Below, in pieces: positions 1 to 45,236 of a stretch of 46,140 nucleotides of DNA. The notes beneath the pieces are model-generated. The model was not told where the DNA came from. It searched no databases and saw nothing but the letters and a program-made list of their open reading frames with translations. The DNA is from a virus (lineage: Duplodnaviria > Heunggongvirae > Uroviricota > Caudoviricetes): positions 1-46,140 of IMG/VR virus record IMGVR_UViG_2693429508_000014. The stretch is one strand, 5' to 3'. Positions within the stretch are counted from its first letter, which is position 1. Each line of letters begins with the position of its first letter. The translations under genes and the position numbers were made by a program.

Positions 1-1056
1 TTACAAATGCTGATTATTGAGTTTTATTGTCTGTAGTGCGTTTTTATCGCCACTATTTTTGGTGTAAATACGATCTAATGGATTGAGCGTTACCGCAGCC
101 TCAAGGTGGTCTGGGGCAAAGTGTGCATATCGCATCGTCATAAGAATCGTACTATGACCTAGTATCTGCTGTAGCACCAAGATATTCCCCCCATTCATCA
201 TAAAGTGGCTTGCAAAGGTATGCCTGAGAACGTGAGTTCGCTGACCTTCCGGCAACTCAATTTTTGCTTTCTTTAGCGCCCAAGTAAAAGCTTCATAGCA
301 ATTTGAAAAGAGACGGCCTCGACGTTTGGGTAACAGCTTCTGGATGTTATCCGAAATCGGGACGGTTCTGTTTTTCTTGCTCTTGGTATTCGTAAATGTG
401 ATCCGTCCCGGTAAAACCTGAGACTGTGTTAATTTTTCAGCCTCACTCCATCTGGCCCCAGTCGCCAGACATACACGAACAACAGAACCAAGATCGGCGT
501 TGCCTGATTCATCGCAAACCGAAAGAAGCCTCTCAATCTCATCTTCATACAGAAATGAGAGTTCGCTTTCACTAACTTTAAAATGGCGCACACCTTCTAA
601 AGGATTTTCACCAGCCCACGCGCCAAGACGCTTTAACTCAGAAAAAACAGCGTGCAAATATGACTGCTCACGATTTACGGTAGCTTCCTTAGTTGGCTTT
701 TTCTTATTAGCACTCCATTCACCTGATAACCGACGCTTCCGGTAAACAGCAAACATATTGCGGTCAAATTCTGAAACGAGCGGATCTCCCATCCTTTCGC
801 AAACAGCCTTCAACTTAGCCTGCCGTTCTTCACCCGTAGTCAATGTTTTACCGTGCATCTCGTACCAAATATCAACAAGCTCAGACAATCGTTTTGAACT
901 ATTAACCACTGAAACATCGGCATGCACCATCAATCGGCGCTCATGAGAAAGCGCCTCACCTTTTGTAGCAAACTGTCTACGAATACGCCTTCCGCTTGCC
1001 CCATATGGATAACATTCACAAAGCCACTTTCCTGATGCGAGTCGCCGAACTGTCAT
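1..1056 (-). CDS. int: Tyrosine integrase, P2 Int family
   Basis: 351-aa ORF. C-terminal catalytic region with HxLRHTFAS...MxYAHF motifs (R-H-R-Y recombinase signature) and N-terminal GKRIRRQF-type segment resembling P2 Int. The window begins exactly at its stop codon. Confidence 0.9.
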   Translation of the reverse strand: MTVRRLASGKWLCECYPYGASGRRIRRQFATKGEALSHERRLMVHADVSVVNSSKRLSELVDIWYEMHGKTLTTGEERQAKLKAVCERMGDPLVSEFDRNMFAVYRKRRLSGEWSANKKKPTKEATVNREQSYLHAVFSELKRLGAWAGENPLEGVRHFKVSESELSFLYEDEIERLLSVCDESGNADLGSVVRVCLATGARWSEAEKLTQSQVLPGRITFTNTKSKKNRTVPISDNIQKLLPKRRGRLFSNCYEAFTWALKKAKIELPEGQRTHVLRHTFASHFMMNGGNILVLQQILGHSTILMTMRYAHFAPDHLEAAVTLNPLDRIYTKNSGDKNALQTIKLNNQHL

Positions 1057-1066
1057 GTCACAACCC

Positions 1067-1324
1067 TCATGAACAATATTTGTCAGGGATTACGCCTAAA
1101 TTTAAAAAATCCAGAAACTCACTTTCAGTTAATATCATAGTTCCTTTTAATGCTGCTATTTCCATTTTTTTCGGACCCGCATTGCGGCCACAGCAAAGAA
1201 TATGAAGATTTGCAGTCACATCATTGCGAACTATCATACCGGCAGAAATTGCAGAATTTTTTAGCCTGTCCTTATCTGTTTTTTTAAAACCAGTAAAACA
1301 AACTTCGAACCACAGATAGGGCAA
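1067..1324 (-). CDS. Small protein with BRCT-like motif; TTG-initiated ORF overlapping an upstream Zn-ribbon ORF in another frame
   Basis: The translation VCFTGFKKTDKDRLKNSAISAGMIVRNDVTANLHILCCGRNAGPKKMEIAALKGTMILTESEFLDFL follows the BRCT pattern as recalled from the NAD-ligase C-terminus. AT-rich. The frame opens right after an in-frame TAA, with no ATG until codon 30. Confidence 0.35.
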   Translation of the reverse strand: MPYLWFEVCFTGFKKTDKDRLKNSAISAGMIVRNDVTANLHILCCGRNAGPKKMEIAALKGTMILTESEFLDFLNLGVIPDKYCS

Positions 1325-1401
1325 TTAGTATCTGTACTAGGTATATAACAATCACATTTTTGGCAATGCACTATTTTCAAAATTTCATTGTGATTTCCCA
1401 T
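1261..1401 (-). CDS. Small Zn-ribbon ORF (46 aa), overlapping the 5' part of the BRCT-like ORF in a different frame
   Basis: ATG 13 nt downstream of the preceding gene's stop. Translation MGNHNEILKIVHCQKCDCYIPSTDTNCPICGSK... has CxxC-(x10)-CPxC spacing. Confidence 0.3.
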   Translation of the reverse strand: MGNHNEILKIVHCQKCDCYIPSTDTNCPICGSKFVLLVLKKQIRTG

Positions 1402-1413
1402 AGCTATCTCACT

Positions 1414-2088
1414 TCATATTTTTGAAACGATTTCGCCCACAACAAAACCAACAACAAATACGATAATGAACACTAAATAATGCGTTGTCAGCATTTTAAT
1501 AAATGGTGTTCTATTAACAGAATTACTAGTTCTGATGTTGTCATTAAAGGAAACAGACATATCCTCTTTACATTCAGGTGAAACAATGGGAGCTGTTTTT
1601 TCTATCCACTCATAAATTTCAACGAGTTGATTGTGGCTTAATTCATCCAGCCGTGTGTTTTTGTAATAAATACTACAATGTTCATTCAGTTTATGGCGCA
1701 AATCCTGCGCCTCTGTTTTATTCAAGATCTTAGCGACAAGAACTTTTTTTGTTTTCTTCTCCTTACTTTCTGCCAGTAAATCGTTGAGGAATTTTAACGC
1801 AACCTTGTACTGACTACCTGATATCTCACTCACACCGTTCACGCCAAGTTCAGCGTGCAACTTTACCCAAACTGGCGCTGTTTCTGTGTTTTCAGACTCA
1901 GCTACAGCATTTACAAGTTTTCGAATGCTGATACGTTGGGACTTTACTAACGGGCGCTCTTCGCCCGCCTTAGCTGAAACATTGATATTGATTGTCTGGC
2001 TACTATCCAAACTCTCAATCTGGACGTTATTTTCTTTATAATCACGCCCTGCAATTTTATTTTTATCCCCGTTCAAGTTTAAATCCAT
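1414..2088 (-). CDS. Hypothetical C-terminally membrane-anchored protein (224 aa); AT-rich cargo gene
   Basis: ATG at 2088 preceded by GAGGAAGG Shine-Dalgarno, 21 nt after the repressor stop (co-transcribed). Hydrophobic C-terminus YLVFIIVFVVGFVVGEIV. Low GC versus the flanking phage genes. Confidence 0.6.
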   Translation of the reverse strand: MDLNLNGDKNKIAGRDYKENNVQIESLDSSQTININVSAKAGEERPLVKSQRISIRKLVNAVAESENTETAPVWVKLHAELGVNGVSEISGSQYKVALKFLNDLLAESKEKKTKKVLVAKILNKTEAQDLRHKLNEHCSIYYKNTRLDELSHNQLVEIYEWIEKTAPIVSPECKEDMSVSFNDNIRTSNSVNRTPFIKMLTTHYLVFIIVFVVGFVVGEIVSKI

Positions 2089-2109
2089 ACCCAGCCTTCC
2101 TCTCACTAC

Positions 2110-2493
2110 TTACTTTTTCTTTTCGTGATAATCCCCGCCCGCTACACGGTTACTGTTGCCTGATACGTTGACAGAAACAGAAGCAGAACTACCGGCTGTA
2201 AGAGCTGCCAATGCTGCAGCTTTAACGGCCAATGGAGCAGAACGATAAAGCGACAAAAGCTCACTTTCATCATTACTCAATGCCGACATAGAGCGCTCAC
2301 CAACCACAACATATTGAATATCAAGACCAAACTTGGACAAAAGAGCTAAGTAAACAGAATCAGGGGAACTATCGCCCTTTTCATATTTGATCTGAGTCCA
2401 CTTTTTAACCCCTCCCATATCCCCCATAGCAGCCTGACTCAACCCTAGCCTTTCTCTTTCTTCCTTCAAACGCGCGCCAATTGATATTTTCAC
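2110..2493 (-). CDS. Prophage immunity repressor, XRE-type HTH (C/CI-like)
   Basis: N-terminal HTH ISIGARLKEERERLGLSQAAMG. Probable GTG start at 2493 with AAGGGG Shine-Dalgarno (the ORF track's longer N-terminus uses an upstream alternative start). Divergent from the cox-like genes. No S24 peptidase-like C-terminal domain seen. Confidence 0.7.
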   Translation of the reverse strand: MKISIGARLKEERERLGLSQAAMGDMGGVKKWTQIKYEKGDSSPDSVYLALLSKFGLDIQYVVVGERSMSALSNDESELLSLYRSAPLAVKAAALAALTAGSSASVSVNVSGNSNRVAGGDYHEKKK

Positions 2494-2570
2494 ACCAAAC
2501 CCCTTGACAGGTGTGTTTTTCCACACCACAATATTATTAACGAACTGATAGAGGATCACAATATATCACT
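2494..2570. promoter_or_regulatory. Divergent lysis-lysogeny switch region between the repressor and the rightward early genes
   Basis: Intergenic region between divergently oriented repressor and early operon. TTGACA at 2504-2509 with a weak -10-like CACAAT 17 nt downstream. Operators not resolved. Confidence 0.3.
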
Positions 2571-2777
2571 ATGAATCAAGAACAACACACTCATAAGTCA
2601 CGATTGCCTAAAGGTGCCTTCAAAGGCAGGCCGATCGCCCTGCGTCTGACACCAGAAGTTCGTAAGACTGTAGAGGACCTGGCAAAGAAAGAGCTTCGCA
2701 CTGACTGCAATATGGCCCACGTCATTTTCATGCGCGGACTTGAGATCATCACTCAGGAGGGAGAAGAAAAAGAATGA
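2571..2777 (+). CDS. Small early regulator, possible ribbon-helix-helix (Cro/Apl-like position)
   Basis: 68 aa. GRPIALRLTPEVRKTVEDLAKKE resembles an RHH beta-strand plus helix. First gene of the rightward early operon. Confidence 0.45.
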   Translation: MNQEQHTHKSRLPKGAFKGRPIALRLTPEVRKTVEDLAKKELRTDCNMAHVIFMRGLEIITQEGEEKE

Positions 2778-2977
2778 GTAACATAACTATCAACATTAAC
2801 ATACCTACAGCCTACGTCCGCTTGGAGAAATACGCGGAAATGACAGGTACACCAATCGGCACATGTAGGGGAATGGTTCGCGATGGACGGATTATTATCC
2901 GTCCAAAAGAAAAAGCTAAAGACGCTATTGAGGTAAATCTCGTAGCCATGCTGAAAGATGCCATTGCGAATAGCTGA
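2774..2977 (+). CDS. Cox-like excisionase / transcriptional regulator
   Basis: 67 aa. AYVRLEKYAEMTGTPIGTCRGMVRDGRIII resembles the HTH region of P2 Cox as recalled. ATGA overlap with the upstream gene. Confidence 0.45.
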   Translation: MSNITININIPTAYVRLEKYAEMTGTPIGTCRGMVRDGRIIIRPKEKAKDAIEVNLVAMLKDAIANS

Positions 2978-3274
2978 ACTTGCAGCCATGAGCAAAACAC
3001 TAATATATATTTCAATCAAATACATGATTATACCTGTTCTAGCCATGCTGGCATCGCTGATTATTATAACTTTTAACAGGGCTTAATCATGTTCAACCCA
3101 AAAAACCTGCTTGCAGGCATAACAGGGGGATTGCGATCATCTGTTTAGGTATAGTTTGGTTACTACAACCATTAAATTTATCACCAGTTATATTTTTAAC
3201 ATGATATTAAAAATGAACACATTAATTAAAACCCAAAGGTTTCATTAAAAACATCAAGATTTGAAGGTGTTGAT

Positions 3275-3469
3275 ATGACTGGCTTCACTCAAACAAAAGA
3301 CTTATACAGCAATTTACGCATCATCATCATGCAACAACAATCAGGCCGGCTGGCTCCCACACGGGCAAGCCATGCCTGGAAAATGGCACTGACCAATCAG
3401 GACGTCAATGTAATTAGCGAAGTTCTGGCTGAAATGATTTTTAAGCTGACAATAAACGAGTCACTGTAA
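3275..3469 (+). CDS. Hypothetical early protein
   Basis: 64-aa ORF with GAAGGTG Shine-Dalgarno 8 nt upstream. Confidence 0.4.
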   Translation: MTGFTQTKDLYSNLRIIIMQQQSGRLAPTRASHAWKMALTNQDVNVISEVLAEMIFKLTINESL

Positions 3470-3497
3470 CTACCGTCACACAAGGACCAGTAGAAAT

Positions 3498-3848
3498 ATG
3501 AAACAACAACTCAATTCTTCACAGCAGCGCTTCCGCAACGGCGCAGAACGCTATGCCAACCGTTTCGCTACCAGCGCATCACGCAGCAACACCCGCTACA
3601 GCCTGAGCGAGACACACGCCACACCTGACGGTCATGCCGTAAAACAGACCGGCAATCATTCCTGGCTGGTTGAGAAAGCAGGCATCGTGATCCACAAATG
3701 CCCGCGCAATCCGATCACCGGCAATCACATTTTTACCCTGAGCCGCGGTGATAATCAGTTCGGGCAGGATTTCACATTATACGAAGCCCTGCGCACCGTT
3801 GATCGCCTTCTTTGCGGAGGGAATTTTATTAAACAGGCTGAGTTATAG
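3498..3848 (+). CDS. Hypothetical early protein
   Basis: 116-aa ORF with AAGGA ribosome-binding site; same strand as the early operon. Confidence 0.5.
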   Translation: MKQQLNSSQQRFRNGAERYANRFATSASRSNTRYSLSETHATPDGHAVKQTGNHSWLVEKAGIVIHKCPRNPITGNHIFTLSRGDNQFGQDFTLYEALRTVDRLLCGGNFIKQAEL

Positions 3849-3890
3849 CAGCGGGTTTATCGCCGGTTATTTTTTAACGAGGACTCTGTT

Positions 3891-4133
3891 ATGAGAAAAC
3901 ACACGGCAGAACAGGTAAACGAATTTCTACAGGGATATTACTTCGATAACGAAATTAATCCCCGCGCCAGAAAAACACACTTCGAAGTAATGAAGTGCGG
4001 AATATTCAGCGTCCGCAACACCCTGTTTTGTTCAAAAGATACGGGAGCCAGCGAGGACCTTAAAGAACTTAACCGGATGGCGAAACAATTAACGGATGGC
4101 ATGGTTCCCGAACCCGCAATAATTACGGAGTAA
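3891..4133 (+). CDS. Hypothetical early protein
   Basis: 80-aa ORF with GAGGA Shine-Dalgarno. Confidence 0.5.
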   Translation: MRKHTAEQVNEFLQGYYFDNEINPRARKTHFEVMKCGIFSVRNTLFCSKDTGASEDLKELNRMAKQLTDGMVPEPAIITE

Positions 4134-4138
4134 TCACG

Positions 4139-4351
4139 ATGAATTTCAGTTATTCATTCAGTGTACCGGAGTCGTTATTTGTTATCACACTGATTGCAGC
4201 CGCAATGTTTTTTGCCATCTGCATACTGACACTTATTGATACATGGCGGGAAATACGCGACAGACGTCGTCAGAAAAAAAAACGGGATGCATATAACGCA
4301 TTTATTCAGCACAAAGAAGAAGTAGAGCGTAAAGCACGCCGCCGTCTTTAG
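4139..4351 (+). CDS. Small single-pass membrane protein, basic C-terminus
   Basis: 70 aa. Hydrophobic segment LFVITLIAAAMFFAICILTLI followed by an R/K-rich tail. GGAG Shine-Dalgarno. Confidence 0.5.
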   Translation: MNFSYSFSVPESLFVITLIAAAMFFAICILTLIDTWREIRDRRRQKKKRDAYNAFIQHKEEVERKARRRL

Positions 4352-4422
4352 TTAATTAACCGGTTCCGTTAATACACCGCTCACGCGGCGGAATTCGCAC
4401 AATCTGAATAAGGGAAATAAAA

Positions 4423-5055
4423 ATGATTAATCCGACACTCACCCTCAAAGATAAAGCCCTTGCGGGCGCAATGTTTTTACGCAACTACGCCGCAATGATG
4501 GCTGACACTGACAACCCGATGATGGTGCTGTCAGTGGAGCCTCACCTTATCGCCGCAGACGCAATTGAACAGGTGGTACAGGAAAACACCTGTCTGAGAA
4601 ATCAGCTTGCCACCCTTCAGACAGCAGCTGACCCGGCAAAGGAAAGTGCTGAACACACCTGCCACACCACATTCATCAAAGGGACCCGCGTATGTCTGAA
4701 AAACAGTCCGCAGCAACGCGGAACGGTCGTTGACACCCGCACCAGTAGCCCCGCCATTGACCGGGTTTTCGTCCGTTTCGATTCCCCCTTCGAGGAAGAC
4801 CGCTGGGTAAAGACCAGAAACCTGGAAATAACCCCGACAAATGAAGCTGATTATCCCTGCGCGACACCGCAAAAACCGGATGAAGCCAGGGGGAAAGCCG
4901 GAGCGGGCAGCAAGGGCGGCATACCGTCGCCTGCTGAAGGGGGACCGGTCACACGTGCGACGACTGGAGCGGGTACCGCCCGCCCGCGTCATCAACGTCA
5001 TGTACCGTTACCGGCTGTTAAGTCTGGACGAAGGCCGGACATGGGTACTGCTTAA
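4423..5055 (+). CDS. Hypothetical early protein; 3' end uncertain (probably ends or changes frame near 4830-4880)
   Basis: 210-aa ORF whose last ~65 residues are low-complexity G/A/P/R-rich, typical of an out-of-frame read. A protein-like alternative frame overlaps (4880..5098). Confidence 0.4.
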   Translation: MINPTLTLKDKALAGAMFLRNYAAMMADTDNPMMVLSVEPHLIAADAIEQVVQENTCLRNQLATLQTAADPAKESAEHTCHTTFIKGTRVCLKNSPQQRGTVVDTRTSSPAIDRVFVRFDSPFEEDRWVKTRNLEITPTNEADYPCATPQKPDEARGKAGAGSKGGIPSPAEGGPVTRATTGAGTARPRHQRHVPLPAVKSGRRPDMGTA

Positions 5056-5098
5056 CCATAACGAATACGTGAAGAGGATAAGACGATGTTACAGATGA
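4880..5098 (+). CDS. Hypothetical small basic protein (start uncertain)
   Basis: Protein-like frame ...RLERVPPARVINVMYRYRLLSLDEGRTWVLLNHNEYVKR. Its stop overlaps the downstream ATG (translational coupling). Confidence 0.35.
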   Translation: MKPGGKPERAARAAYRRLLKGDRSHVRRLERVPPARVINVMYRYRLLSLDEGRTWVLLNHNEYVKRIRRCYR

Positions 5099-5616
5099 AA
5101 TTTAAGCCCTGCTTTATTGACGCATTCCGCAACGGACGCAAGACCACATCCCTTCGCCCGACGGGGTTTGATTGCTACCAGGCGGGCCAGGAGTCAGCAG
5201 AATATTTTCATGAAGACACCCTGACCCGCAACATCGTTCTTCCCGATTACAGCGCCGGCGGTACCCTGGTTTTTGAGGAGGGAACCACATTTACCCGCGC
5301 ATCAGACTTTGCCGGACTCCTGAAAAGACAGCCCTACCGGCAGTATGACAACATTCATCTGGTCACAGAAAACAAGAACGGCGAAACCGTGCCGTTCGCC
5401 GTGGCCTTCATTGCCGATATCGGTGTAATACAGGGCCGCCAGATAACCGATGAAGTGGCCGTCAGGGACGGCTTTAACCCTGAAAACCATCCCCGCGACG
5501 AACTCTTTGCATTCATGCGGGACACCTGCCACATAGAAAACCCCAAAAACGAAACCTACTGGCGGTACACCTTCACCCACATCGTGATGTTGTCGCAGTG
5601 GAGGGCTGACGCATGA
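5086..5616 (+). CDS. ASCH-domain (PUA-like fold) protein
   Basis: N-terminus KFKPCFIDAFRNGRKTTSLRP matches the ASCH pattern F...I..G.KT.T.R as recalled. Translationally coupled to neighbours. Confidence 0.5.
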   Translation: MLQMKFKPCFIDAFRNGRKTTSLRPTGFDCYQAGQESAEYFHEDTLTRNIVLPDYSAGGTLVFEEGTTFTRASDFAGLLKRQPYRQYDNIHLVTENKNGETVPFAVAFIADIGVIQGRQITDEVAVRDGFNPENHPRDELFAFMRDTCHIENPKNETYWRYTFTHIVMLSQWRADA

Positions 5617-5852
5617 AACCCGCCATTATCTGCATTCTGTGCGAGAGCACTGTCACCGGCGACCATTACCGCATCAGGGAACGCCACATCAACCCTGACC
5701 GTTCGCTGCTGGACAACATCACCGGCCCGGATGATGAACGCGTGATCTGCCTGAACGACGGCTCGCAGTTACGCGTGCGCAATATCCGGCGCGAAATCAC
5801 GCTCGAACCCACCCCATTCACACGCGGGAAAAAACCGGAGAGTGACGCATGA
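5613..5852 (+). CDS. Hypothetical protein
   Basis: 79-aa ORF with ATGA overlaps on both sides. Confidence 0.45.
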   Translation: MKPAIICILCESTVTGDHYRIRERHINPDRSLLDNITGPDDERVICLNDGSQLRVRNIRREITLEPTPFTRGKKPESDA

Positions 5853-6811
5853 AAGGTATTCTGAACCAGCGCTCACCGCTCAAATGGGCGGGCGGCAAAT
5901 TCAGTATCATGCCGCAGCTGCGCGAATATTTACCCAAAGCCGCCTGCCTGATCGAACCCTTCGTGGGCGGCGGCTCGGTCTTCATGAACACGGATTATGA
6001 CTATTACGTATTGTGTGACAGCAACCCCACGCTGATTAATTTCTACCAGCAACTGACGACCAACACCACGGAATTAATGGATCGTGCATGGTCGCTCTTT
6101 AAGGATGGCGGCACACCGGAAGCCTACAAACGCCATCGCGGGGCATTTAACACCATCGCGCTGGCCACCGACAGATTACGCGGCGAATCCCTGGAATGGG
6201 CAGCGCTGTTTCTGTACCTGAACCGCCATTGCTTTAACGGCCTGTACCGCACCAACCAAAAAGGCGAATTCAATGTGCCATTCGGCAAACACCGCATGCC
6301 TTATTTCCCCTGCCAGGAAATGCGCCTGTTTGCTGATAAAGCCAACGAGACCCGGACCCGCTTTATTCACGCGGATTTCCGTACAGCCTTCACAATGCCG
6401 GCTGAGATCCGCCGTTTTTCTTCGGTGCACGACGATATCGCCATTTACTGCGATCCGCCCTACCTGCCACCGGACGGTAAAGAGGCGTTCACTCACTACA
6501 ACGGCCGGGCATTTACCCGCAAAGACCACCGTGACCTTGCGGCGCTCATGATGAACGCCTGGCAGCGTTACGGTATCCGCCCGGTGGTCTCCAACAGTGA
6601 CACCACCGAAACCCGGCAAATCTATTCCTCGTTTGAGCTGCACACCCTGAGCGTTCGCCGCTCTGTTGCTGCCAGCAGCAGCGCACGCCAGCAGGCAAAA
6701 GAGGTAATTGGTGTTTATCCGCCAGCCCATAAAAGCCAGCTCCGGGACGTCAATGTGGGCTGGCCGTCTCCCCTTCACGCTCCACACCCCACCACGGAGA
6801 TCATGCAATGA
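5849..6811 (+). CDS. DNA adenine methyltransferase, Dam family (N6-adenine, D12 class), orphan
   Basis: 320 aa. LKWAGGKF N-terminus, EPFVGGGSVFMN (motif I) and CDPPYLPP (DPPY motif IV), with overall collinearity to E. coli Dam as recalled. No adjacent restriction endonuclease. Confidence 0.9.
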   Translation: MKGILNQRSPLKWAGGKFSIMPQLREYLPKAACLIEPFVGGGSVFMNTDYDYYVLCDSNPTLINFYQQLTTNTTELMDRAWSLFKDGGTPEAYKRHRGAFNTIALATDRLRGESLEWAALFLYLNRHCFNGLYRTNQKGEFNVPFGKHRMPYFPCQEMRLFADKANETRTRFIHADFRTAFTMPAEIRRFSSVHDDIAIYCDPPYLPPDGKEAFTHYNGRAFTRKDHRDLAALMMNAWQRYGIRPVVSNSDTTETRQIYSSFELHTLSVRRSVAASSSARQQAKEVIGVYPPAHKSQLRDVNVGWPSPLHAPHPTTEIMQ

Positions 6812-7119
6812 CCGTTATCTATATCGCCGGCCCCATGACGGGAAAGCCTGATTTCAACCGCACCGCCTTCACCATGACAGCGACCCGCCTGAGGATGCAG
6901 GGCCATACCGTACTCAACCCCGCAACACTCCCTGACGGGCTGAGATACAGGGACTACATGCTTATCGGGAGCGCCATGCTGCACTGTGCCGATGTGATTT
7001 ACCTGCTGGATGGCTGGGAGGACTCGCCGGGGGCAAAAGAGGAACACGCCACCGCCCTGAAACTGAATCTGATCATCTCCACACCAGAAAGCCGTAAGGA
7101 GGCCAAATCATGTTTCTGA
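6808..7119 (+). CDS. DUF4406 / nucleoside 2-deoxyribosyltransferase-like protein
   Basis: 103 aa. N-terminus MTVIYIAGPMTGKPDFNRTAF...VLNPA matches the DUF4406 pattern as recalled. ATGA overlap with the methylase gene. Confidence 0.5.
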   Translation: MTVIYIAGPMTGKPDFNRTAFTMTATRLRMQGHTVLNPATLPDGLRYRDYMLIGSAMLHCADVIYLLDGWEDSPGAKEEHATALKLNLIISTPESRKEAKSCF

Positions 7120-7664
7120 AACCAATGGGGGGACCAGGTAAAGCACCGAAGCACGTCAGTGCATGGACACAACAGGAAGACGAACTGCTTATCTCGCTTT
7201 ATCAGGATCACAGCACATGGCAAATGGCTGAACGACTTCAGCGAACCCGCAGCGCAGTGATGCACCGGATTCTTTTTTTACGTAATCGCGGGTTGATTGG
7301 TCGCAAGAAAAAAGCACCGCTGAGTGCAGAAGCCATCGCCTTTCTCATCAAAAACCGTCACGCAAAAACCGCACGGGAACTGGCCCGGAAGGCGGGATGC
7401 AGCGAGTGCACCGTGAGGTACACACTGCATAAACGGGGTTACAGCCTTAAGAAATGCGGCGAGAGCCACCATTGCACCAGATACAGCGATCGTCTGGCTG
7501 AGCTGGTTACGGAGCTACGCGACAGACGCAACATGACGTTCTGCATAATCGCGAAACACATCAACATCACGATGCAAATGCACATCAGCGATGATACGGC
7601 GTTTCACCTCTACAACCGCCGGACCGCCGCCGACGCCCTGTTGTACGAACTGCTGCCGAACTGA
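7110..7664 (+). CDS. DNA-binding protein with GcrA-like / Myb-type HTH
   Basis: 184 aa. WTQQEDELLISLYQDHSTWQMAERLQRTRSAVMHRILFL resembles the GcrA N-terminal HTH. A second HTH-like segment is TARELARKAGCSECTVRYTL. Overlaps the upstream gene by 10 nt. Confidence 0.45.
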   Translation: MFLKPMGGPGKAPKHVSAWTQQEDELLISLYQDHSTWQMAERLQRTRSAVMHRILFLRNRGLIGRKKKAPLSAEAIAFLIKNRHAKTARELARKAGCSECTVRYTLHKRGYSLKKCGESHHCTRYSDRLAELVTELRDRRNMTFCIIAKHINITMQMHISDDTAFHLYNRRTAADALLYELLPN

Positions 7665-7784
7665 GTGATCATCATGCACACACAAAAAAACCGCTTGCCA
7701 TGTCGCAATCAGTCAGGTTACATTTCCGCTGCACCTCATAAAACGGGTGCCGGGATTGAGACCCCGCTGACAAACATAGCGCAC

Positions 7785-7806
7785 AACCGCGCCAGCGGTT
7801 TTTTTG
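7785..7806 (+). terminator. Putative rho-independent terminator of the early operon
   Basis: AACCGC-GCCA-GCGGTT hairpin followed by a T7 run. Confidence 0.4.
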
Positions 7807-7984
7807 TGCGTACTGTATCGCCACATCTTTTTCGCACACGAATTATGGTGGGGCGTACGGGGCCGACTTCGGTCGGGCCGGGTTCTATGTTTGCCGGTAG
7901 TCTCAACCCTGTACGTCTCGCCACCCCGAGTTTGAGACCTCTGGATGGTGAGTTTTCAAAACTTACACACATAGAGGCCACATC

Positions 7985-8212
7985 ATGGCAAACCGCAAAC
8001 AACAGCGCGCATACGCTGCGCGTCGTCACATCCAGACTGAAATCAACCGCAGACTTTTCCGCGCCTTCCGCGTCGCGCATATCATGCACATCAATATGCT
8101 GCATGAGCACAGTCACGCACTGTCAAACACCTATTCCGCCGCTGTTTTCAGCTATCTGGCGGATGATCTGCGCGGGCTGCGGGACCTCATTAACCAGCAC
8201 TACCACCACTAA
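7985..8212 (+). CDS. Hypothetical small protein (weak call)
   Basis: 75-aa ORF with GAGG upstream; lies in an otherwise non-coding 616-bp region. Confidence 0.25.
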   Translation: MANRKQQRAYAARRHIQTEINRRLFRAFRVAHIMHINMLHEHSHALSNTYSAAVFSYLADDLRGLRDLINQHYHH

Positions 8213-8280
8213 TCAACATCCCGAAGCCATCCCGCATCCATACGCGGGAGGCTTCCGCACGTCCGTTTCCGGAGGTTCTC

Positions 8281-8694
8281 ATGAAGAGCGTTAAGGGACT
8301 TTCAGATATTCAGGATTTTTTTAACTGGATGTGGGCGGTGGATCCACGCCTCGCTTCCCGTCTCAATGACCTGCACGACTATTACCGCCGCGCCTGTAAA
8401 CAGGCCGCCAGCAGCGCCACCACATACGGTGACTTTTCCTTCACCGTTGACGACCGTTACCGCGTGGACGTCAGAGACCAGAACAACAGCCTGGAGCTGG
8501 GCCTGTTCCACATCAACGGACTCGACAGCAGTGTTATCAGCTGGTCATCGTCAGAAATGGTGCTCGTTCTGGAAATGACCACCCACAGCGTGGTCGTGAA
8601 AGGGATTAAAACGGCAGAAGACTTTATCGCTGAATACCAGCGTCTTCTTGTGCTGTACCGGGCTGCATTTCAGAAGGCAACAGCAGGGGAGTAA
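8281..8694 (+). CDS. Hypothetical protein upstream of the replication gene
   Basis: 137-aa ORF with GGAGG Shine-Dalgarno, immediately upstream of the gpA-like gene. Confidence 0.5.
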   Translation: MKSVKGLSDIQDFFNWMWAVDPRLASRLNDLHDYYRRACKQAASSATTYGDFSFTVDDRYRVDVRDQNNSLELGLFHINGLDSSVISWSSSEMVLVLEMTTHSVVVKGIKTAEDFIAEYQRLLVLYRAAFQKATAGE

Positions 8695-8699
8695 GCGGA

Positions 8700-11216
8700 A
8701 TGAGCCATCACAACACACACCTGGCGTACCCGTGGAATGCCCCGCTGCCGGTTATTGATCCTGAGACGTTCGGCAGAGCGTTACCGCAGAAGCCAACCGC
8801 ATTACAACGGGCAATCCGGGACTACCTCACCGAAGACATTCGCACTGAGGCCCGGCTGGATGAAGAAACCGTGGTCTTCCTGACAACCACGGACAAAGGC
8901 AAACAAATTAATTCACACCTTCACCGGGACGAAGAGCGGCAGACAAGGTTGGATAAGCTGGCACGACACAGACGCGAAAATCCGCCAACGGAGGTATCGG
9001 AAGCGATAGCCGAACTTCGCGCCCTGCCACCGTTTCTTGCCAGCGTGCTGATCCGCGATCTGGCACGCCTGAACCGGAAACAGCAAAGCGCCCGCAGCAA
9101 AGGTGTAAAAAACAATAGCGCATACGTGGCCGATAACTTCGTTCGCCGTGGACTGCGCGCGCGCCTGAAACGTATCGAACGGGTTAACGACCGCTTTGCA
9201 ACGCCGGCATTCAAATCCAGTGTCATACGCCATCGCCTTGAAGAGCTGCTCATGCTGCCGCAACTCAGCCGCGACAAGATCCAGCGCATCGCCACACTGA
9301 CTGCGCAGTTCTTTACCGCAGAATTTGAACGCATATGTGATGAAGTTCCTGAACAGACCGGAAAGAATAATGACAGCCCGGTTATCTGGCTGCTGGCCTA
9401 CCAGAAGATGGCACGCATAGCCTTAACGCTGGGCGTGATCCCGCCATACTGGCCGGAACTCGAAATCAGGCACAACCGACGCACACCGCCGGACCCTGAA
9501 CTGATACCGGGTGCGGTACTGCGCATCACCTGCGCGACCTGGTGGAACAACCAGTTACGCCACATCGCCGATCTCTGGCGGGAGGAGTTACTGCGTGCCG
9601 CCGGCAGAGTGTCACGTAAACAATCCCCTTATATCAGCCATGAATCACTACTGGAGTTTCGCGAGAAGCGCCAGCGCACCCGTGATTTTCTCAAAAGCTG
9701 GGATATTGAAAACGAAGACGGCGAGCGCCTGAGTCTGGAGGAAGTGTACTGGGCGGGCCCGGGGAATCCACGCAACCGCCGCAATGAAATGATGGTCTGC
9801 GTCAGAGGGATGGAGATGGTAGCCGAATTGCGGGGTGACGTCGCATTCTTCATCACGGTAACAGCCCCTTCCCGCTTTCACAGCGTGAACGAAGACGGCA
9901 GCCTGAACCCGAAATACAACGGTGCCACTGTACGCGATACCAGTGATTATCTGGTTTACGACTTCTTCGCAGCCGTAAGAAAAAAAATCAAAAAAGAGGG
10001 GCTGGGCTGGTACGGCGTGCGAACCGCTGAGCCACACCATGACGGCACGCCACACTGGCATATGCTGGTATTCACGTCCCCTGAGAACGCAGAGCGCATC
10101 ATCGAAATTATGCGCGACGCAGCGATTAAATCAGATCGCCACGAACTGGGGGACGATATTTCGCCGCGCTTTGAATGCGAGAAGATAGATCCGGAAAAAG
10201 GGTCGCCGGCAAGCTATATCGCAACCTATATCGGTAAGAACCTGGACGCCAGCGCCTTCCACAACAATGATCCGAAAACCGGAAAACCTTACGTCGATAA
10301 GGAATCCGGGAAAACCATGGCGGAAACCGTGGAGAACGCCATTGCATGGGCGAGCCTTCACCGCATACGTCAGTTCCAGTTTTTCGGCATTCCGCCCCGC
10401 CAGGTGTGGCGAGAACTCCGCCGCCTTGCAAGCCAGATGGAGCGCAACCCGGCATCACCGAAGCGACTCGATCATGGAGATATTGACGCCATTATGGCCG
10501 CCGCAGACGTGGGGTGTTTTGCCACCTACATCATGAAACAGGGTGGCGTGCTTATTCCACGCAACCAGTATCTGGTCCGCACCGCATACAAAACCGCAGA
10601 CGAAGCTAATGACTACGGCGAATTCCCGCAGCGCATCTACGGAATTTGCGCCCCGTCACTCGGGGAACGGTACACCATCTGCACCCATCCGGATGAGTGG
10701 AAACTGGTCAGAAAAGAATCTGACGCCGACAACAGCACGGACGAGGGTTTTGACCTTCGGGGCGGCTTCGCCGCACCTTGGACTCGTGGCAATAACTGTC
10801 CCGGTGACGAAAAAACAGCCGGAACCGGCACAGAAAACAGGCAGCGTGGGTCGCGGCTGACGCTTCCGGAAAGCGGCCTGGCGCACTGGTTGCAGACGTT
10901 AACCCGTCACGAGCGGAAACAGCTCATCAGACAGCTTAAAAATCAGCCGCCCACCACGGATACCGGACAAAATAACACCAGACCAGCATCAGACACCCCT
11001 GTCAGGGTGGAGGTTGTCGTGCCTGTCGACACCACGACCATCGCACAAATCACCCGCGAACTCGACGCGCTGGGTGTGCAGCTGCCTGACGCAGCCATTA
11101 TTTCCGTGAGTAACGGTGCCCGCGTTCGCCCGGGCGACGGGCGTATCGCGTACTGGAGCGCCACAACCCGCCGTATCGTCATCACACAGGAGTCGTCAGC
11201 GGAGGTAAGATCATGA
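8700..11216 (+). CDS. Replication initiation protein, P2 gpA-like rolling-circle (HUH) endonuclease
   Basis: 838 aa. Motifs FITVTAPSRFH, YGVRTAEPHHDGTPHWHMLVF (HUH motif) and SYIATYIGKNLD match P2 gpA as recalled. Confidence 0.9.
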   Translation: MSHHNTHLAYPWNAPLPVIDPETFGRALPQKPTALQRAIRDYLTEDIRTEARLDEETVVFLTTTDKGKQINSHLHRDEERQTRLDKLARHRRENPPTEVSEAIAELRALPPFLASVLIRDLARLNRKQQSARSKGVKNNSAYVADNFVRRGLRARLKRIERVNDRFATPAFKSSVIRHRLEELLMLPQLSRDKIQRIATLTAQFFTAEFERICDEVPEQTGKNNDSPVIWLLAYQKMARIALTLGVIPPYWPELEIRHNRRTPPDPELIPGAVLRITCATWWNNQLRHIADLWREELLRAAGRVSRKQSPYISHESLLEFREKRQRTRDFLKSWDIENEDGERLSLEEVYWAGPGNPRNRRNEMMVCVRGMEMVAELRGDVAFFITVTAPSRFHSVNEDGSLNPKYNGATVRDTSDYLVYDFFAAVRKKIKKEGLGWYGVRTAEPHHDGTPHWHMLVFTSPENAERIIEIMRDAAIKSDRHELGDDISPRFECEKIDPEKGSPASYIATYIGKNLDASAFHNNDPKTGKPYVDKESGKTMAETVENAIAWASLHRIRQFQFFGIPPRQVWRELRRLASQMERNPASPKRLDHGDIDAIMAAADVGCFATYIMKQGGVLIPRNQYLVRTAYKTADEANDYGEFPQRIYGICAPSLGERYTICTHPDEWKLVRKESDADNSTDEGFDLRGGFAAPWTRGNNCPGDEKTAGTGTENRQRGSRLTLPESGLAHWLQTLTRHERKQLIRQLKNQPPTTDTGQNNTRPASDTPVRVEVVVPVDTTTIAQITRELDALGVQLPDAAIISVSNGARVRPGDGRIAYWSATTRRIVITQESSAEVRS

Positions 11217-11644
11217 CGCGATTTCACTGCACCATGCAGCGTCAGCAGTTCGACGCCGTTATGCGCCAGCGCACGCCAGCCATGACACTGAGAGGCGTAG
11301 CCACAAGACCACAGCCCGGGGACGAACTGGAAATCACGGTGGCCAGCCCCGATCGCACCACCACAACCACCATCACCGACATACTTAACAGGCGACCGGG
11401 CAGTGAATATCAGAGCTGGACCATTGCCGTTCGCCCACGCCGTTCGCCGGAAGAACCGGAGCCGCTCACCCCGGCCGGAAAAATCATGCAGAAGTACCAC
11501 GAAGAGCAGGCCCGCAAACACAATGTCGCGCTGGCCAGAACACTGACTGCCGTCAATCGCAAGGCCGCACTGGCGCGAAGGGTCTTTTCATCGCAGCACC
11601 CTTCATTCGCCAGACCGGCACAACACAGGAGAGATCCACAATGA
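11213..11644 (+). CDS. Hypothetical protein (orf91-like position after the replication gene)
   Basis: 143-aa ORF with ATGA overlap with the gpA-like stop. Confidence 0.45.
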   Translation: MTRFHCTMQRQQFDAVMRQRTPAMTLRGVATRPQPGDELEITVASPDRTTTTTITDILNRRPGSEYQSWTIAVRPRRSPEEPEPLTPAGKIMQKYHEEQARKHNVALARTLTAVNRKAALARRVFSSQHPSFARPAQHRRDPQ

Positions 11645-11889
11645 GAGAGCAATTACCAGACACCGTGCCAGTACAGGAAATCAAAGAAAATATCAGGCAA
11701 CAACTTCACGGATTTTATATTACTTATGATTTGTGGCTGAAAAACGGAGCAAATCCAGACGGAATATTTTCGCGAAACTGTGGTTTATGCGCCAGCCTCT
11801 GGGATTATCTCGAATTAACGGGTGCTGATAAAGAAGCCGCACTGGAGCTATTGCACATTGATTTCAGAAATGCCGGGCGAACCGCATAG
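11641..11889 (+). CDS. Hypothetical small protein, lower GC (possible cargo)
   Basis: 82-aa ORF with ATGA overlap; visibly AT-richer codon usage than neighbours. Confidence 0.4.
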   Translation: MREQLPDTVPVQEIKENIRQQLHGFYITYDLWLKNGANPDGIFSRNCGLCASLWDYLELTGADKEAALELLHIDFRNAGRTA

Positions 11890-11944
11890 CGGTGAGTCTG
11901 TCAGGGCGAGGAAGCGGAAGATCCACCGCCCCACAGAATGGCAC

Positions 11945-12208
11945 TTACGCGCCATCACTGAGCAGAATATCCAGTGCCATTTGCCTTTCGTCTGGTTTAA
12001 GGCGCTGGAGCAATGCTTTAACGACACCATCAGTTTGCAGGTCACTGGGTGAAATCACGCGAAGATCGGAAAGATTGAGCGAAAAACGCATATTACAGTC
12101 AGAATTAGTGCAGGTGCAATAAACTACCGCCAGCGTTTTTGCGTCATCCTGCCATGCAGTTTTGCGTATAGCCGCCCGGCAGTGACACGCCGGACATTCA
12201 ATTTTCAT
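11945..12208 (-). CDS. ogr: Ogr/Delta-family zinc-finger late transcription activator
   Basis: MKIECPACHC...YCTCTNSDCNMRF matches the Ogr Cys4 pattern (MFHCPLC...C.N..C). An alternative start 12 nt upstream at 12220 (MAGVMKIE...) is possible. Confidence 0.7.
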   Translation of the reverse strand: MKIECPACHCRAAIRKTAWQDDAKTLAVVYCTCTNSDCNMRFSLNLSDLRVISPSDLQTDGVVKALLQRLKPDERQMALDILLSDGA

Positions 12209-32765: not shown

Positions 32766-32766
32766 N

Positions 32767-33633: not shown

Positions 33634-33700
33634 ATTTTATAACCCATATACGGGCGCCAGAAATGGCGCCTTTTTTATTGCAGAAAAGCGAGAGGTAATT

Positions 33701-45224: not shown

Positions 45225-45236
45225 TCGGGAAGAAAG

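What the first reader, a model, noticed from the sequence alone, without database searches (positions are those of the whole stretch)
4880..7664. Translationally coupled operon: ASCH-domain protein, small ORF, orphan Dam methylase, DUF4406-like protein, GcrA-like regulator
Five consecutive genes have overlapping stop/start codons (ATGA-type junctions at 5098/5086, 5616/5613, 5852/5849, 6811/6808, and a 10-nt overlap at 7110), implying tight co-expression. Their predicted functions all relate to nucleic-acid modification: a PUA-fold ASCH domain (a fold class that reads modified bases), an N6-adenine methyltransferase, a nucleoside deoxyribosyltransferase-like protein and a GcrA-like DNA-binding protein. 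This could be an anti-restriction / epigenetic-control module rather than isolated hitchhiker genes.
Basis: partly seen in the sequence, partly recalled or inferred. Interest (0 to 1): 0.6.

Follow-up and report, generated by a model that had tools for sequence, protein, structure and literature searches.

The report
Prophage Dam methylase accessory gene block
This is a tightly packed run of accessory genes in the early operon of a P2-like E. coli prophage, built around an orphan Dam DNA methylase; it is an ordinary phage feature, except that one companion gene (DUF4406) sits next to DNA methylases in many unrelated phages far more often than chance.

Summary
The ORFs and overlapping junctions are real, but there are six genes here, not five. 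The unnamed first one (4841-5098) is ParE-like. Overlaps are not special to this block: 16 of 35 same-strand junctions in the window overlap.

Domain checks:
- Dam: confirmed, with GATC-contact residues conserved.
- DUF4406: confirmed, with the catalytic Glu of nucleoside 2-deoxyribosyltransferases kept.
- ASCH: supported only indirectly, as a divergent member with a ~65-aa insert.
- GcrA: not supported. The protein is three tandem Myb/HTH repeats.

The block lies in the early operon of a P2-like prophage, between cox/DUF4761 and the isrK/C4 RNAs and replication gene A. It occurs in 5 of 5426 complete E. coli genomes.

Salmonella P2-like prophages keep 146aa–ParE-like–ASCH–79aa–Dam with the same junctions. 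The downstream slot varies: DUF4406+Myb, Myb+Dcm, or PAPS reductase. Every gene also occurs without the others. This points to a mosaic of methylation-related cassettes, not one obligate five-part system.

One new lead emerged. Across 59 distinct viral contexts, DUF4406's immediate neighbours are DNA methyltransferases 17 times in 116, against 1 in 108 for third neighbours. Four Pfam families are represented there, and a fifth in deposited phages.

The parts
4423..5055 (+). Upstream early-operon gene (phrog_20495; 146 aa in relatives). Its last codons are frameshifted here, which extends the ORF to 210 aa over the next gene.
   Evidence: The PHROG match covers only aa 1-140. Relatives L030/L031 and Salmonella have a CCCCC run and an ATGA junction, whereas the window and FDAARGOS_943 have CCCC. 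RefSeq leaves this stretch unannotated.
4841..5098 (+). ParE-like small protein (85 aa).
   Evidence: Pfam PF24732 scores 38.6 bits against a 24.4 cut-off. RefSeq calls it 'ParE family toxin-like protein'. It is 86-87% identical to Salmonella orthologues, with codon-position differences of 5/6/24.
5086..5616 (+). Divergent ASCH-domain protein (176 aa) with a ~65-aa insertion after the N-terminal GxKxxxxR motif.
   Evidence: Its own ASCH hit is 16.1 bits, below the 21.2 cut-off. 14 of 25 relatives hit ASCH. Profile-reached relatives P0162, P0163 and P0165 pass the ASCH cut-off over their full length. K19, R24 and D128 are invariant.
5613..5852 (+). Conserved 79-aa protein of unknown function.
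   Evidence: It matches phrog_20193. It is 68-74% identical in Salmonella, always in this block. It has no Pfam, NCBIfam, PADLOC or PDB match.
5849..6811 (+). Orphan Dam-family N6-adenine DNA methyltransferase (320 aa), predicted to be GATC-specific.
   Evidence: PF02086 scores 178.9 bits and TIGR00571 237.5 bits. The best PADLOC model is 'orphan methyltransferase'. It aligns to EcoDam 2g1p at E 4.5e-57, with the FxGxG and DPPY motifs and the K9, L122, R124 and P134 equivalents kept.
6808..7119 (+). DUF4406 protein (103 aa) of the nucleoside 2-deoxyribosyltransferase superfamily.
   Evidence: PF14359 scores 104 bits and it matches phrog_355. The family profile hits NDT structures 2a0k and 7m5h, and the invariant E79 aligns to the NDT Glu.
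7110..7664 (+). DNA-binding protein (184 aa) made of three tandem Myb/SANT-like helix-turn-helix repeats. It is not a GcrA.
   Evidence: The AF2 model has pLDDT 81.8 and shows three tri-helical units. Best fold and profile matches are tandem-HTH proteins: 2lvs, Tc3, Mos1 and Reb1. No GcrA hit was found. RefSeq names it 'SANT/Myb-like DNA-binding domain-containing protein'.
2504..2532 (+). Candidate early promoter (Pe-like) from which the operon would be transcribed.
   Evidence: This is the best sigma-70 consensus match in 1-12000 (TTGACA-17-CACAAT, 10 of 12), facing away from the repressor gene. It rests on a consensus scan only.
7731..7928 (+). Downstream boundary of the block: isrK-like RNA (7731-7805, with terminator-like hairpin at 7785-7800) and C4 antisense RNA (7841-7928).
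   Evidence: Rfam RF01394 scores 66.7 bits and RF01695 81.5 bits.
8700..11216 (+). Replication endonuclease gpA. It identifies the operon as the P2-type early/replication operon.
   Evidence: PF05840 scores 352.3 bits and phrog_91 820 bits.

Best explanation
The region is the non-essential middle stretch of the early (Pe-type) operon of a P2-like (Peduoviridae) E. coli prophage. It lies between the cox/DUF4761 genes and the isrK/C4 RNA module plus replication gene A.

It is a chain of six tightly abutting genes, seven in intact relatives. They would be transcribed together as soon as the phage is derepressed or infects (inferred).

The core activity is an orphan Dam-family methyltransferase. 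It most likely methylates GATC on the rapidly replicating phage DNA. Host Dam is limiting for high-copy DNA. Extra Dam would keep phage DNA fully methylated, avoiding MutH nicking and SeqA binding at hemimethylated sites. It would also protect against GATC-cutting restriction enzymes in new hosts (inferred from established Dam biology).

The flanking genes are separately exchangeable cassettes that recur beside phage DNA methyltransferases:
- an ASCH (PUA-like) protein, a possible reader or hydrolase of modified bases;
- a conserved 79-aa protein;
- a DUF4406 protein, a probable N-glycosidase acting on a methylation-related nucleotide or by-product;
- a triple-HTH Myb-like DNA-binding protein.

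They form a loose 'methylation toolkit' neighbourhood, not an obligate multi-subunit system.
For: Context:
- gpA, ogr, portal, integrase and repressor surround the block.
- P2 itself has the same operon plan, with other small genes in this position.
- Dam sits in the early operon of other P2-like phages and prophages, e.g. Klebsiella 3LV2017 and E. coli L021-L024.

Dam identity: its Dam identity and conserved GATC-contact residues come. Its best PADLOC model is an orphan MTase, and no nuclease partner is present.

Conserved sub-block: 146aa-ParE_like-ASCH-79aa-Dam recurs in Salmonella prophages with the same overlapping junctions and SD sites. This holds even where ASCH is only 23% identical.

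Cassette behaviour: the downstream slot holds DUF4406+Myb184 here, Myb167/172+C5-MTase, or PAPS reductase. Myb184 homologues at 76% aa identity lack any Dam upstream. DUF4406+Myb179 occur without ASCH or Dam.

Recurrent association:
- Immediate neighbours of DUF4406 in 59 distinct viral contexts are MTases 17/116, against 1/108 for third neighbours. Fisher p is about 1e-4.
- The gaps are typically -4 to +2 nt.
- The pattern is also seen in N15, Acidovorax Alfacinha1, Pseudomonas LESphi3 and Gordonia Gudmit.
- In Citrobacter lambdoid prophages the order is HTH, then a PF05869 Dam, then DUF4406.

Literature:
- ASCH-N6A-MTase operonic linkage is already published (PMC4738411).
- Phage Dams are regarded as anti-restriction genes, and host Dam is limiting for high-copy DNA (10.1101/2020.06.22.160242).

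GATC is under-represented in the window (120 observed, 199 expected).
Against: - No methylation or expression data exist. GATC specificity is inferred from conserved contact residues, with one change (Y119->F).
- E. coli already has Dam, so the benefit of a second GATC methylase is assumed, not shown.
- The ASCH assignment is indirect, and the AF2 model was unusable (pLDDT 49).
- The functions of DUF4406, the 79-aa protein, the ParE-like protein and Myb184 are unknown.
- The DUF4406-MTase statistics come from the 80 best IMG/VR hits (>=49% identity, probably mostly enterobacterial; hosts not checked) and a crude ORF caller. Contexts are not phylogenetically independent.
- In 6 of 10 sampled deposited phages no MTase is adjacent.
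- The promoter and co-transcription are inferred from a consensus scan only.
Confidence: 0.6

Rival explanations
1. One reading: the five genes form one integrated anti-restriction / epigenetic-control system. The ASCH and Myb/'GcrA-like' proteins read the Dam mark, DUF4406 processes a nucleotide, and all of them need each other.
For: - Tight coupling and shared orientation.
- The ASCH-79aa-Dam trio is conserved across E. coli and Salmonella.
- MTase+DUF4406+HTH recurs in Citrobacter lambdoid prophages, Gordonia phage Gudmit and a Brachyspira prophage, and MTase+DUF4406+ASCH in Pseudomonas LESphi3.
- The Citrobacter HTH is a remote homologue of Myb184 repeats 1-2 (hhalign prob 77%, E 2e-5).
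- HTH repeat 1 faintly resembles the GcrA DNA-binding domain (hhalign E 0.0018, prob 15%).
Against: - Every component is found without the others.
- Myb184 is not a GcrA.
- Only 4 of 59 DUF4406 contexts have any Myb184-like neighbour, and only the near-identical prophages carry this ASCH family.
- Overlapping junctions are generic here.
Confidence: 0.15
2. Unrelated hitchhiker ('moron') genes. The cox-to-A interval is simply a permissive slot where P2-like phages accumulate independent cargo. Adjacency and overlap reflect genome compaction only.
For: - The interval is highly mosaic among P2-like prophages. P2, P88, L003/L004, L021-L024 and 3LV2017 all differ.
- The block is rare, in 5 of 5426 E. 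coli genomes.
- Overlaps are common throughout the phage.
Against: - DUF4406 is adjacent to methyltransferases of five different Pfam families in unrelated phage types, about 15-fold over the third-neighbour control.
- The slot after Dam is repeatedly filled by DNA-modification genes: a C5 MTase, PAPS reductase or DUF4406.
- ASCH-MTase linkage is independently documented.
Confidence: 0.2
3. A toxin-antitoxin or abortive-infection/defence cassette centred on the ParE-like protein, with the neighbouring small proteins as antitoxin and the methylase incidental.
For: - The ParE_like Pfam hit is above the cut-off.
- The ParE-like gene is the most conserved in the block, at 86-87% aa against 49-73% for its neighbours.
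- It travels with the 146-aa and 79-aa genes even when ASCH and Dam are absent.
Against: - No PADLOC hit for any gene other than the MTase.
- No recognisable antitoxin family.
- The location is inside the lytic early operon, not a prophage-expressed moron site.
- The upstream partner is frameshifted here without obvious consequence.
Confidence: 0.05

Closest known systems
Phage-encoded orphan Dam methyltransferases (P1 Dam, T4 Dam, Stx-phage Dam; Dam genes of P2-like phages such as Klebsiella phage 3LV2017)
   Same: It is a D12-class N6-adenine MTase with FxGxG and DPPY motifs and EcoDam-like GATC contacts. It has no cognate nuclease and is encoded among early/replication genes.
   Different: It is about 50% identical at most to any Dam in 50,697 deposited phage genomes. 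It carries a ~30-aa C-terminal extension and is embedded in a conserved ParE-like/ASCH/79-aa block that deposited phages lack.
ASCH (PUA-like) domains operonically linked or fused to N6-adenine methyltransferases (Iyer, Zhang & Aravind 2016, PMC4738411)
   Same: An ASCH-family protein is encoded just upstream of an N6A-MTase in the same operon. The GxKxxxxR motif and a conserved acidic residue are kept.
   Different: It is a very narrow, divergent subfamily: 15 hits in 1.84 billion representatives. It has a ~65-aa insertion and falls below the Pfam cut-off itself. A conserved 79-aa gene always lies between it and Dam.
Nucleoside 2-deoxyribosyltransferase / DNPH1(Rcl) / LOG superfamily
   Same: The DUF4406 profile aligns end-to-end with solved NDTs, and the invariant E79 falls on the NDT Glu. 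From my own knowledge, the S73...E79 spacing resembles the Rcl Ser/Glu pair.
   Different: It is much shorter (~100 aa). No substrate is known, and only three papers in the library mention it. Unlike NDT or DNPH1, it is habitually adjacent to DNA methyltransferases in phages.
GcrA / CcrM methylation-reading transcription factor of Alphaproteobacteria
   Same: A small DNA-binding protein is encoded near an adenine methylase. HTH repeat 1 shows a W-T-x-E...Q-[IM]-A...T-R-x-A-V pattern like the GcrA DNA-binding domain (hhalign E 0.0018).
   Different: There is no PF07750 hit and no GcrA C-terminal sigma70-binding domain. The protein has three tandem HTH repeats. Its best structural matches are bipartite HTH proteins such as Cbp1 (2lvs), Tc3 and Mos1. 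Homologues occur without any methylase.
Phage P2 early operon (cox-orf78-B-orf80..83-A)
   Same: It has the same operon logic: divergent repressor and early promoter, small overlapping genes, and gpA at the end.
   Different: None of the P2 B/orf80-83 genes is present, and Myb184 is unrelated to gpB. An isrK/C4 RNA module and a 'derepression' gene precede gpA.
ParE/RelE-superfamily toxins
   Same: The 85-aa protein matches Pfam ParE_like above the cut-off.
   Different: No recognisable antitoxin is present and no toxicity data exist. It sits in a lytic early operon rather than a stand-alone TA pair.

Membership tests
Dam-family (D12 class) GATC N6-adenine DNA methyltransferase | Match to the family models above curated cut-offs | tested here: met
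   PF02086 scores 178.9 bits (cut-off 22). TIGR00571 scores 237.5 bits (cut-off 114.85). It is below the host-Dam equivalog NF008152 (234 < 441), so it is a family member, not the host orthologue.
Dam-family (D12 class) GATC N6-adenine DNA methyltransferase | SAM-binding FxGxG and catalytic DPPY motifs, plus the EcoDam GATC-contact residues (K9, Y119, L122, R124, P134; residue roles from my knowledge of the EcoDam-DNA structure) | tested here: met
   The alignment to 2g1p shows EPFVGGGSVF, CDPPY, K12=K9, L=L122, R=R124 and P=P134. Y119 is replaced by F.
Dam-family (D12 class) GATC N6-adenine DNA methyltransferase | Actual methylation of GATC | not testable with these tools
   Needs a DpnI/MboI assay or SMRT/nanopore methylome.
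Orphan (solitary) methyltransferase | No cognate restriction endonuclease nearby | tested here: met
   Neighbours are phage early genes, and none hits a PADLOC nuclease model. The best PADLOC model for the MTase is 'oMTase' at 269 bits.
ASCH domain (PF04266) | Match to the Pfam model at or above the gathering score | tested here: inconclusive
   The window protein scores 16.1 bits against a 21.2 cut-off. 14 of 25 relatives hit at E<=0.1, best 1.2e-5. Remote relatives found with the family profile (E 9e-9 to 2.6e-5) score 26-33 bits over ASCH positions 2-102.
ASCH domain (PF04266) | N-terminal GxKxxxxR motif and a conserved acidic residue (YqfB K21/T24/E74 equivalents; roles from my own knowledge) | tested here: met
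   G17-R-K19-T-T-S22-L-R24 is present, with K19, R24 and D128 invariant in the family alignment. hhalign to YqfB aligns only the C-terminal segment, and weakly.
ASCH domain (PF04266) | PUA-like beta-barrel fold | tested here: inconclusive
   The AF2 model has mean pLDDT 49 and is unusable. Sequence and profile searches of the PDB found nothing.
DUF4406 (PF14359), nucleoside 2-deoxyribosyltransferase-like clan | Match to the Pfam model, and relationship to NDT enzymes with the catalytic Glu kept | tested here: met
   PF14359 scores 104 bits (cut-off 22). The profile hits NDT 2a0k at E 3.9e-4 with E79 aligned to the NDT Glu.
GcrA family (PF07750) | Match to the GcrA model | tested here: not met
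   There is no PF07750 hit at E<=0.1. None of 37 homologues carries it. Only a 'faint' precomputed hit exists on a 36%-identical Salmonella relative.
GcrA family (PF07750) | Architecture: a single N-terminal DNA-binding domain plus a C-terminal sigma70-interacting domain | tested here: not met
   The AF2 model (pLDDT 81.8) shows three tri-helical HTH units. The PDB profile search and Foldseek top 50 contain no GcrA chain, although 5yiu and 7ye1 are in the library. Only repeat 1 aligns to the GcrA DBD (prob 15%).
GcrA family (PF07750) | Preferential binding to m6A-methylated sites | not testable with these tools
   Needs EMSA or ChIP with methylated and unmethylated DNA.
ParE/RelE-like toxin (PF24732 ParE_like) | Match to the model above the cut-off | tested here: met
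   It scores 38.6 bits against a 24.4 cut-off.
ParE/RelE-like toxin (PF24732 ParE_like) | Cognate antitoxin and toxicity | not tested
   No antitoxin family was recognised in the flanking 146-aa or 79-aa proteins. Toxicity needs experiment.
Translationally coupled operon | Stop/start overlaps with ribosome-binding sites inside the upstream gene, conserved in orthologous loci | tested here: met
   Window junctions are -13, -4, -4, -4 and -10 nt, with GGAG-type SD sites. The same junctions occur in Salmonella L005, L006 and L012.
Translationally coupled operon | Dependence of downstream translation on upstream translation | not testable with these tools
   Needs premature-stop reporter experiments.

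The most novel reading that the evidence does not exclude
DUF4406 proteins may be dedicated partners of phage orphan DNA methyltransferases. They lie directly beside, usually overlapping, MTases of five different Pfam families (D12 Dam, PF05869 Dam, C5, MT-A70, N6_N4). These cover both adenine and cytosine methylation.

The common denominator would therefore be SAM-dependent DNA methylation itself. One possibility is an N-glycosidase that removes methylated (d)NMPs such as N6-methyl-dAMP or 5-methyl-dCMP from the pool. Another is cleavage of the inhibitory by-product S-adenosylhomocysteine.

Together with ASCH and Myb-like HTH proteins, this would define an unrecognised 'methylation support' toolkit of temperate phages.
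Probability: 0.3. Interest if true: 0.55.

Novelty: new member of a known kind. Interest (0 to 1): 0.3.

Why it matters
As it stands, this is a routine accessory segment of a P2-like prophage. It adds one more orphan Dam to a long list. It corrects three annotations:
- the 'GcrA-like' gene is a triple Myb/HTH protein;
- a ParE-like gene was overlooked;
- ASCH is a divergent member.

Its modest value lies in the comparative by-product. The uncharacterised but very widespread phage family DUF4406 (533 deposited phage genomes) shows a strong positional association with DNA methyltransferases of several unrelated families. This gives it a testable functional hypothesis. It also suggests that phage orphan methylases commonly travel with helper genes. 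If confirmed, that would refine how anti-restriction and epigenetic functions of temperate phages are annotated.

Tried and rejected
- **AF2 model of the ASCH-like protein** from a 25-sequence alignment: mean pLDDT 49, so no fold search was attempted.
- **PDB searches for the ASCH-like protein**, by sequence and by profile: nothing relevant. hhalign to E. coli YqfB aligned only 21 columns.
- **GcrA hypothesis**: tested four ways (Pfam, PDB profile, Foldseek, direct hhalign to the GcrA DBD) and rejected as a family assignment.
- **Myb184 as an analogue of P2 gpB**: no similarity.
- **Defence-system models (PADLOC)**: only the MTase matched.
- **79-aa and ParE-like proteins against the PDB**: nothing.
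- **ASCH-like protein against 50,697 deposited phage genomes**: no match, so named-phage context could not be obtained.
- **Megablast of the block against deposited phages**: only the isrK/C4 region matched.
- **Gordonia Gudmit HTH against Myb184**: unrelated.
- **A Pfam call with wrong coordinates** failed.
- **Overlap run as a signal in itself**: rejected, since 46% of same-strand junctions in the window overlap and another run of five exists.

Full report
**What is in the sequence**

Six ORFs abut on the + strand between 4841 and 7664:
- 4841-5098 (85 aa)
- 5086-5616 (176 aa)
- 5613-5852 (79 aa)
- 5849-6811 (320 aa)
- 6808-7119 (103 aa)
- 7110-7664 (184 aa)

Reading the DNA confirms three true ATGA junctions at 5613, 5849 and 6808. 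It also confirms a 10-nt overlap at 7110-7119. The junction at 5086-5098 is a 13-nt overlap, not an ATGA.

Each start from 5086 onward has a GGAG-type ribosome-binding site 7-8 nt upstream, inside the preceding gene.

The unnamed sixth gene is the 85-aa ORF. Its start is 4841 in RefSeq and in Salmonella orthologues, not 4880.

All six are real genes. Each matches a Pfam or PHROG family. In codon-aligned comparisons with Salmonella orthologues, third-position differences exceed first and second positions. The ParE-like ORF shows 5/6/24 and Dam shows 78/64/136.

The run of overlaps is not unusual for this phage. A crude gene call gives 16 overlaps among 35 same-strand junctions, and another run of five lies in the late genes.

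**Genomic setting**

The window is a P2-like prophage of E. coli. Its landmarks are:
- integrase at 1-1056
- a divergent HTH repressor
- replication endonuclease gpA at 8700-11216 (PF05840, 352 bits)
- ogr, portal and terminase beyond that

The block therefore lies in the early operon, in the position where P2 carries B and orf80-83. The best sigma-70-like site in the first 12 kb is at 2504-2532. No strong + strand terminator-like site precedes 7785-7800. Co-transcription from an early promoter is inferred, not shown.

Directly after the block, Rfam finds an isrK-like RNA (7731-7805) and a C4 antisense RNA (7841-7928). A 'derepression protein' ORF follows.

That RNA region is shared at 83-93% identity with relatives. 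1354 of 5426 complete E. coli genomes match some part of the 4400-8700 query. The methylase block itself is in only 5 of 5426.

**Domain checks**

*Dam.* Confirmed. PF02086 scores 178.9 bits and TIGR00571 scores 237.5 bits (cut-off 114.85). The best PADLOC model is an orphan methyltransferase.

The alignment to E. coli Dam (2g1p, E 4.5e-57) keeps the FxGxG and DPPY motifs. It also keeps the equivalents of K9, L122, R124 and P134, with Y119 replaced by F. The roles of these residues in GATC recognition come from my knowledge of the EcoDam-DNA structure. GATC specificity is therefore inferred.

No nuclease partner is nearby.

*DUF4406.* Confirmed at 104 bits. A family profile aligns end to end with solved nucleoside 2-deoxyribosyltransferases (2a0k, E 3.9e-4). 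The invariant E79 falls on the NDT glutamate.

*ASCH.* Supported only indirectly.
- The window protein scores 16.1 bits against a 21.2 cut-off.
- 14 of 25 relatives hit ASCH.
- An exhaustive profile search of 1.84 billion representatives finds just 15 proteins.
- Three remote members among these pass the ASCH cut-off over the whole model (26-33 bits). This shows the family is an ASCH domain with a ~65-aa insertion.
- The GxKxxxxR motif (K19, R24) and an invariant D128 are kept.
- The AF2 model was too poor to use (pLDDT 49).

*GcrA.* Not supported. There is no PF07750 hit for the protein or its 37 homologues.

A confident AF2 model (pLDDT 81.8) shows three tandem tri-helical HTH units. Both the PDB profile search and Foldseek return bipartite-HTH proteins: 2lvs, Tc3, Mos1 and Reb1. 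No GcrA chain appears, although GcrA chains are in that library.

Only HTH repeat 1 aligns faintly to the GcrA DNA-binding domain (hhalign E 0.0018, probability 15%). RefSeq calls the protein SANT/Myb-like.

*The overlooked first gene.* It matches Pfam ParE_like above the cut-off (38.6 bits against 24.4).

*The 79-aa protein.* It matches only an unannotated PHROG.

**Is it a module?**

Salmonella P2-like prophages keep the order 146 aa – ParE-like – ASCH – 79 aa – Dam. They use the same overlapping junctions.

In one of them the ASCH protein is only 23% identical, yet it still sits before the 79-aa gene and Dam. That sub-block is therefore a conserved unit.

The next slot is variable:
- DUF4406 + Myb184 in this window
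- a 36%-identical Myb-like protein + a C5 methyltransferase
- a PAPS-reductase-family gene
- neither (L007)

Each gene also occurs without the others:
- Myb184 homologues at 76% aa identity sit before the isrK/C4 region in E. coli prophages with no Dam, ASCH or DUF4406.
- ParE-like – 79 aa – DUF4406 – Myb179 occurs without ASCH and Dam.
- A remote ASCH relative occurs without Dam.
- Dam and DUF4406 occur together in another P2-like lineage, separated by two small genes and preceded by an Rv2179c-like exonuclease.

This is cassette-like mosaicism, not an obligate five-component system.

**The DUF4406–methyltransferase association**

DUF4406 homologues are present in 533 deposited phage genomes across many host phyla.

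Among ten deposited phages inspected, four have a DNA methyltransferase directly abutting DUF4406:
- N15 gp57-gp58 (C5)
- Acidovorax Alfacinha1 (C5)
- Pseudomonas LESphi3 (PF01555), followed by an ASCH gene
- Gordonia Gudmit (PF01555), followed by an HTH gene

Citrobacter lambdoid prophages carry HTH – PF05869 Dam – DUF4406 with ATGA overlaps. That HTH is a remote homologue of Myb184 repeats 1-2 (hhalign probability 77%).

For a less anecdotal test I took these steps:
1. I fetched 80 IMG/VR loci with a DUF4406 alignment.
2. I reduced them to 59 distinct neighbour contexts.
3. I scanned the immediate upstream and downstream ORFs against Pfam.

17 of 116 immediate neighbours are DNA methyltransferases: PF00145 ×6, PF05869 ×5, PF02086 ×5 and PF05063 ×1. 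Two more are Lar restriction-alleviation proteins.

Among 108 third neighbours only one methyltransferase appears in the listed families.

A local phmmer tally puts methyltransferases at positions -1 (10), +1 (5), ±2 (3), -3 (2) and -4 (3), with none at +3/+4. The gaps are typically -4 to +2 nt.

Caveats:
- The sample is the best 80 hits (>=49% identity).
- The ORF caller is crude.
- The contexts are not phylogenetically independent.

The literature library mentions DUF4406 in only three papers, none proposing a function. One lists 'wHTH regulator, N-6 DNA methylase, DUF4406' consecutively in a Brachyspira prophage.

By contrast, the operonic linkage of ASCH with N6-adenine methyltransferases is already published (PMC4738411).

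**Most likely mechanism**

*Shown:* an orphan Dam-family gene with intact catalytic and GATC-contact residues lies in a compact early operon, ahead of the replication gene.

*Inferred:* on induction or infection the operon is transcribed from the early promoter. Dam then methylates GATC on the rolling-circle-replicating phage DNA.

Host Dam is limiting for high-copy DNA, and phage Dams are regarded as anti-restriction functions (10.1101/2020.06.22.160242). Extra Dam would keep phage DNA fully methylated. That would avoid MutH and SeqA action at hemimethylated sites, and would protect against GATC-cutting enzymes in other hosts.

GATC is under-represented in the window (120 observed, 199 expected). 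This is compatible with selection acting on these sites.

*Speculative:* DUF4406 partners with both adenine and cytosine methyltransferases. Its role is therefore likely tied to methylation in general. It could hydrolyse methylated (d)NMPs, by analogy with LOG, MilB and DNPH1 in the same superfamily (from my knowledge). Alternatively it could cleave S-adenosylhomocysteine.

ASCH may read or hydrolyse a modified base. Myb184 is a sequence-specific DNA-binding protein of unknown target.

**Verdict**

It is partly wrong on GcrA and on treating coupling as evidence of a unified system.

The object is a new member of a known kind: the accessory methylase region of a P2-like early operon. Interest is low to moderate. 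The one lead worth following is the DUF4406–methyltransferase association.

Noticed in passing
window 7731-7805, 7841-7928 and 7985-8212: An isrK-like RNA and a C4 antisense RNA (a P1 immI-type module) lie just after the block. A 'derepression protein' ORF follows them, ahead of gpA. This stretch is shared at 83-93% identity with relatives; 1354 of 5426 complete E. coli genomes match some part of the 4400-8700 query. A 36-nt piece matches P1-like phages RCS47 and JL22. The 209-aa ORF 7665-8294 that overlaps the RNAs is probably spurious.
   Followed up: partly
window ~4833-4836 (within ORF 4423-5055): A C5->C4 homopolymer deletion, relative to near-identical prophages and Salmonella, frameshifts the last codons of the upstream 146-aa gene. 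This removes its ATGA junction with the ParE-like gene and extends it 70 aa over that gene. FDAARGOS_943 has the same change, and RefSeq leaves the stretch unannotated. It could be a real mutation or a homopolymer sequencing error.
   Followed up: yes
window 4841-5098: The ParE-like ORF is by far the most conserved gene of the block, at 86-87% aa identity to Salmonella against 49-73% for its neighbours. It persists with the 146-aa and 79-aa genes when ASCH and Dam are absent. This hints at an important but unknown role.
   Followed up: partly
L012 6719-7729; L115 487-1476; L016 3883-5262: PAPS-reductase-family genes occupy the slot after Dam in one Salmonella prophage. They also sit next to, or near, DUF4406 in Pseudomonas phage Riah and Acidovorax phage Alfacinha1. 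This is another recurrent member of the neighbourhood.
   Followed up: no
window 32752-37208 and 40805-43043: The late region carries lambda-type genes: tip attachment protein J C-terminal domain, Lom and the side tail fibre N-terminus. It also carries HP1/P2-type baseplate genes, beside P2-type portal, terminase and capsid genes. The prophage is therefore either a head/tail mosaic or abuts remnants of a second phage.
   Followed up: no
whole window: GATC is among the most avoided palindromic tetramers, with 120 observed against 199 expected (O/E 0.60). This is similar to TATA and CTAG, despite the phage encoding its own Dam.
   Followed up: partly
L021-L024 1225-3014; L025 3796-4401; L110 3315-3893: An Rv2179c-like 3'-5' exonuclease gene recurs next to Dam or DUF4406 in other P2-like and lambdoid prophages of E. 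coli, Edwardsiella and Klebsiella.
   Followed up: no
window 45138-45440: A tRNA-Leu(taa)/Cys/Gly cluster lies on the minus strand at the far end of the window. It is presumably host flank.
   Followed up: no
L011 5817-6146 (phage P2 orf91): P2's own Orf91, just after gene A, is annotated as DUF3850, which to my recollection is an ASCH/PUA-related family (not tested here). If so, PUA-like proteins are a recurring feature of P2-type early operons even without a methylase.
   Followed up: no
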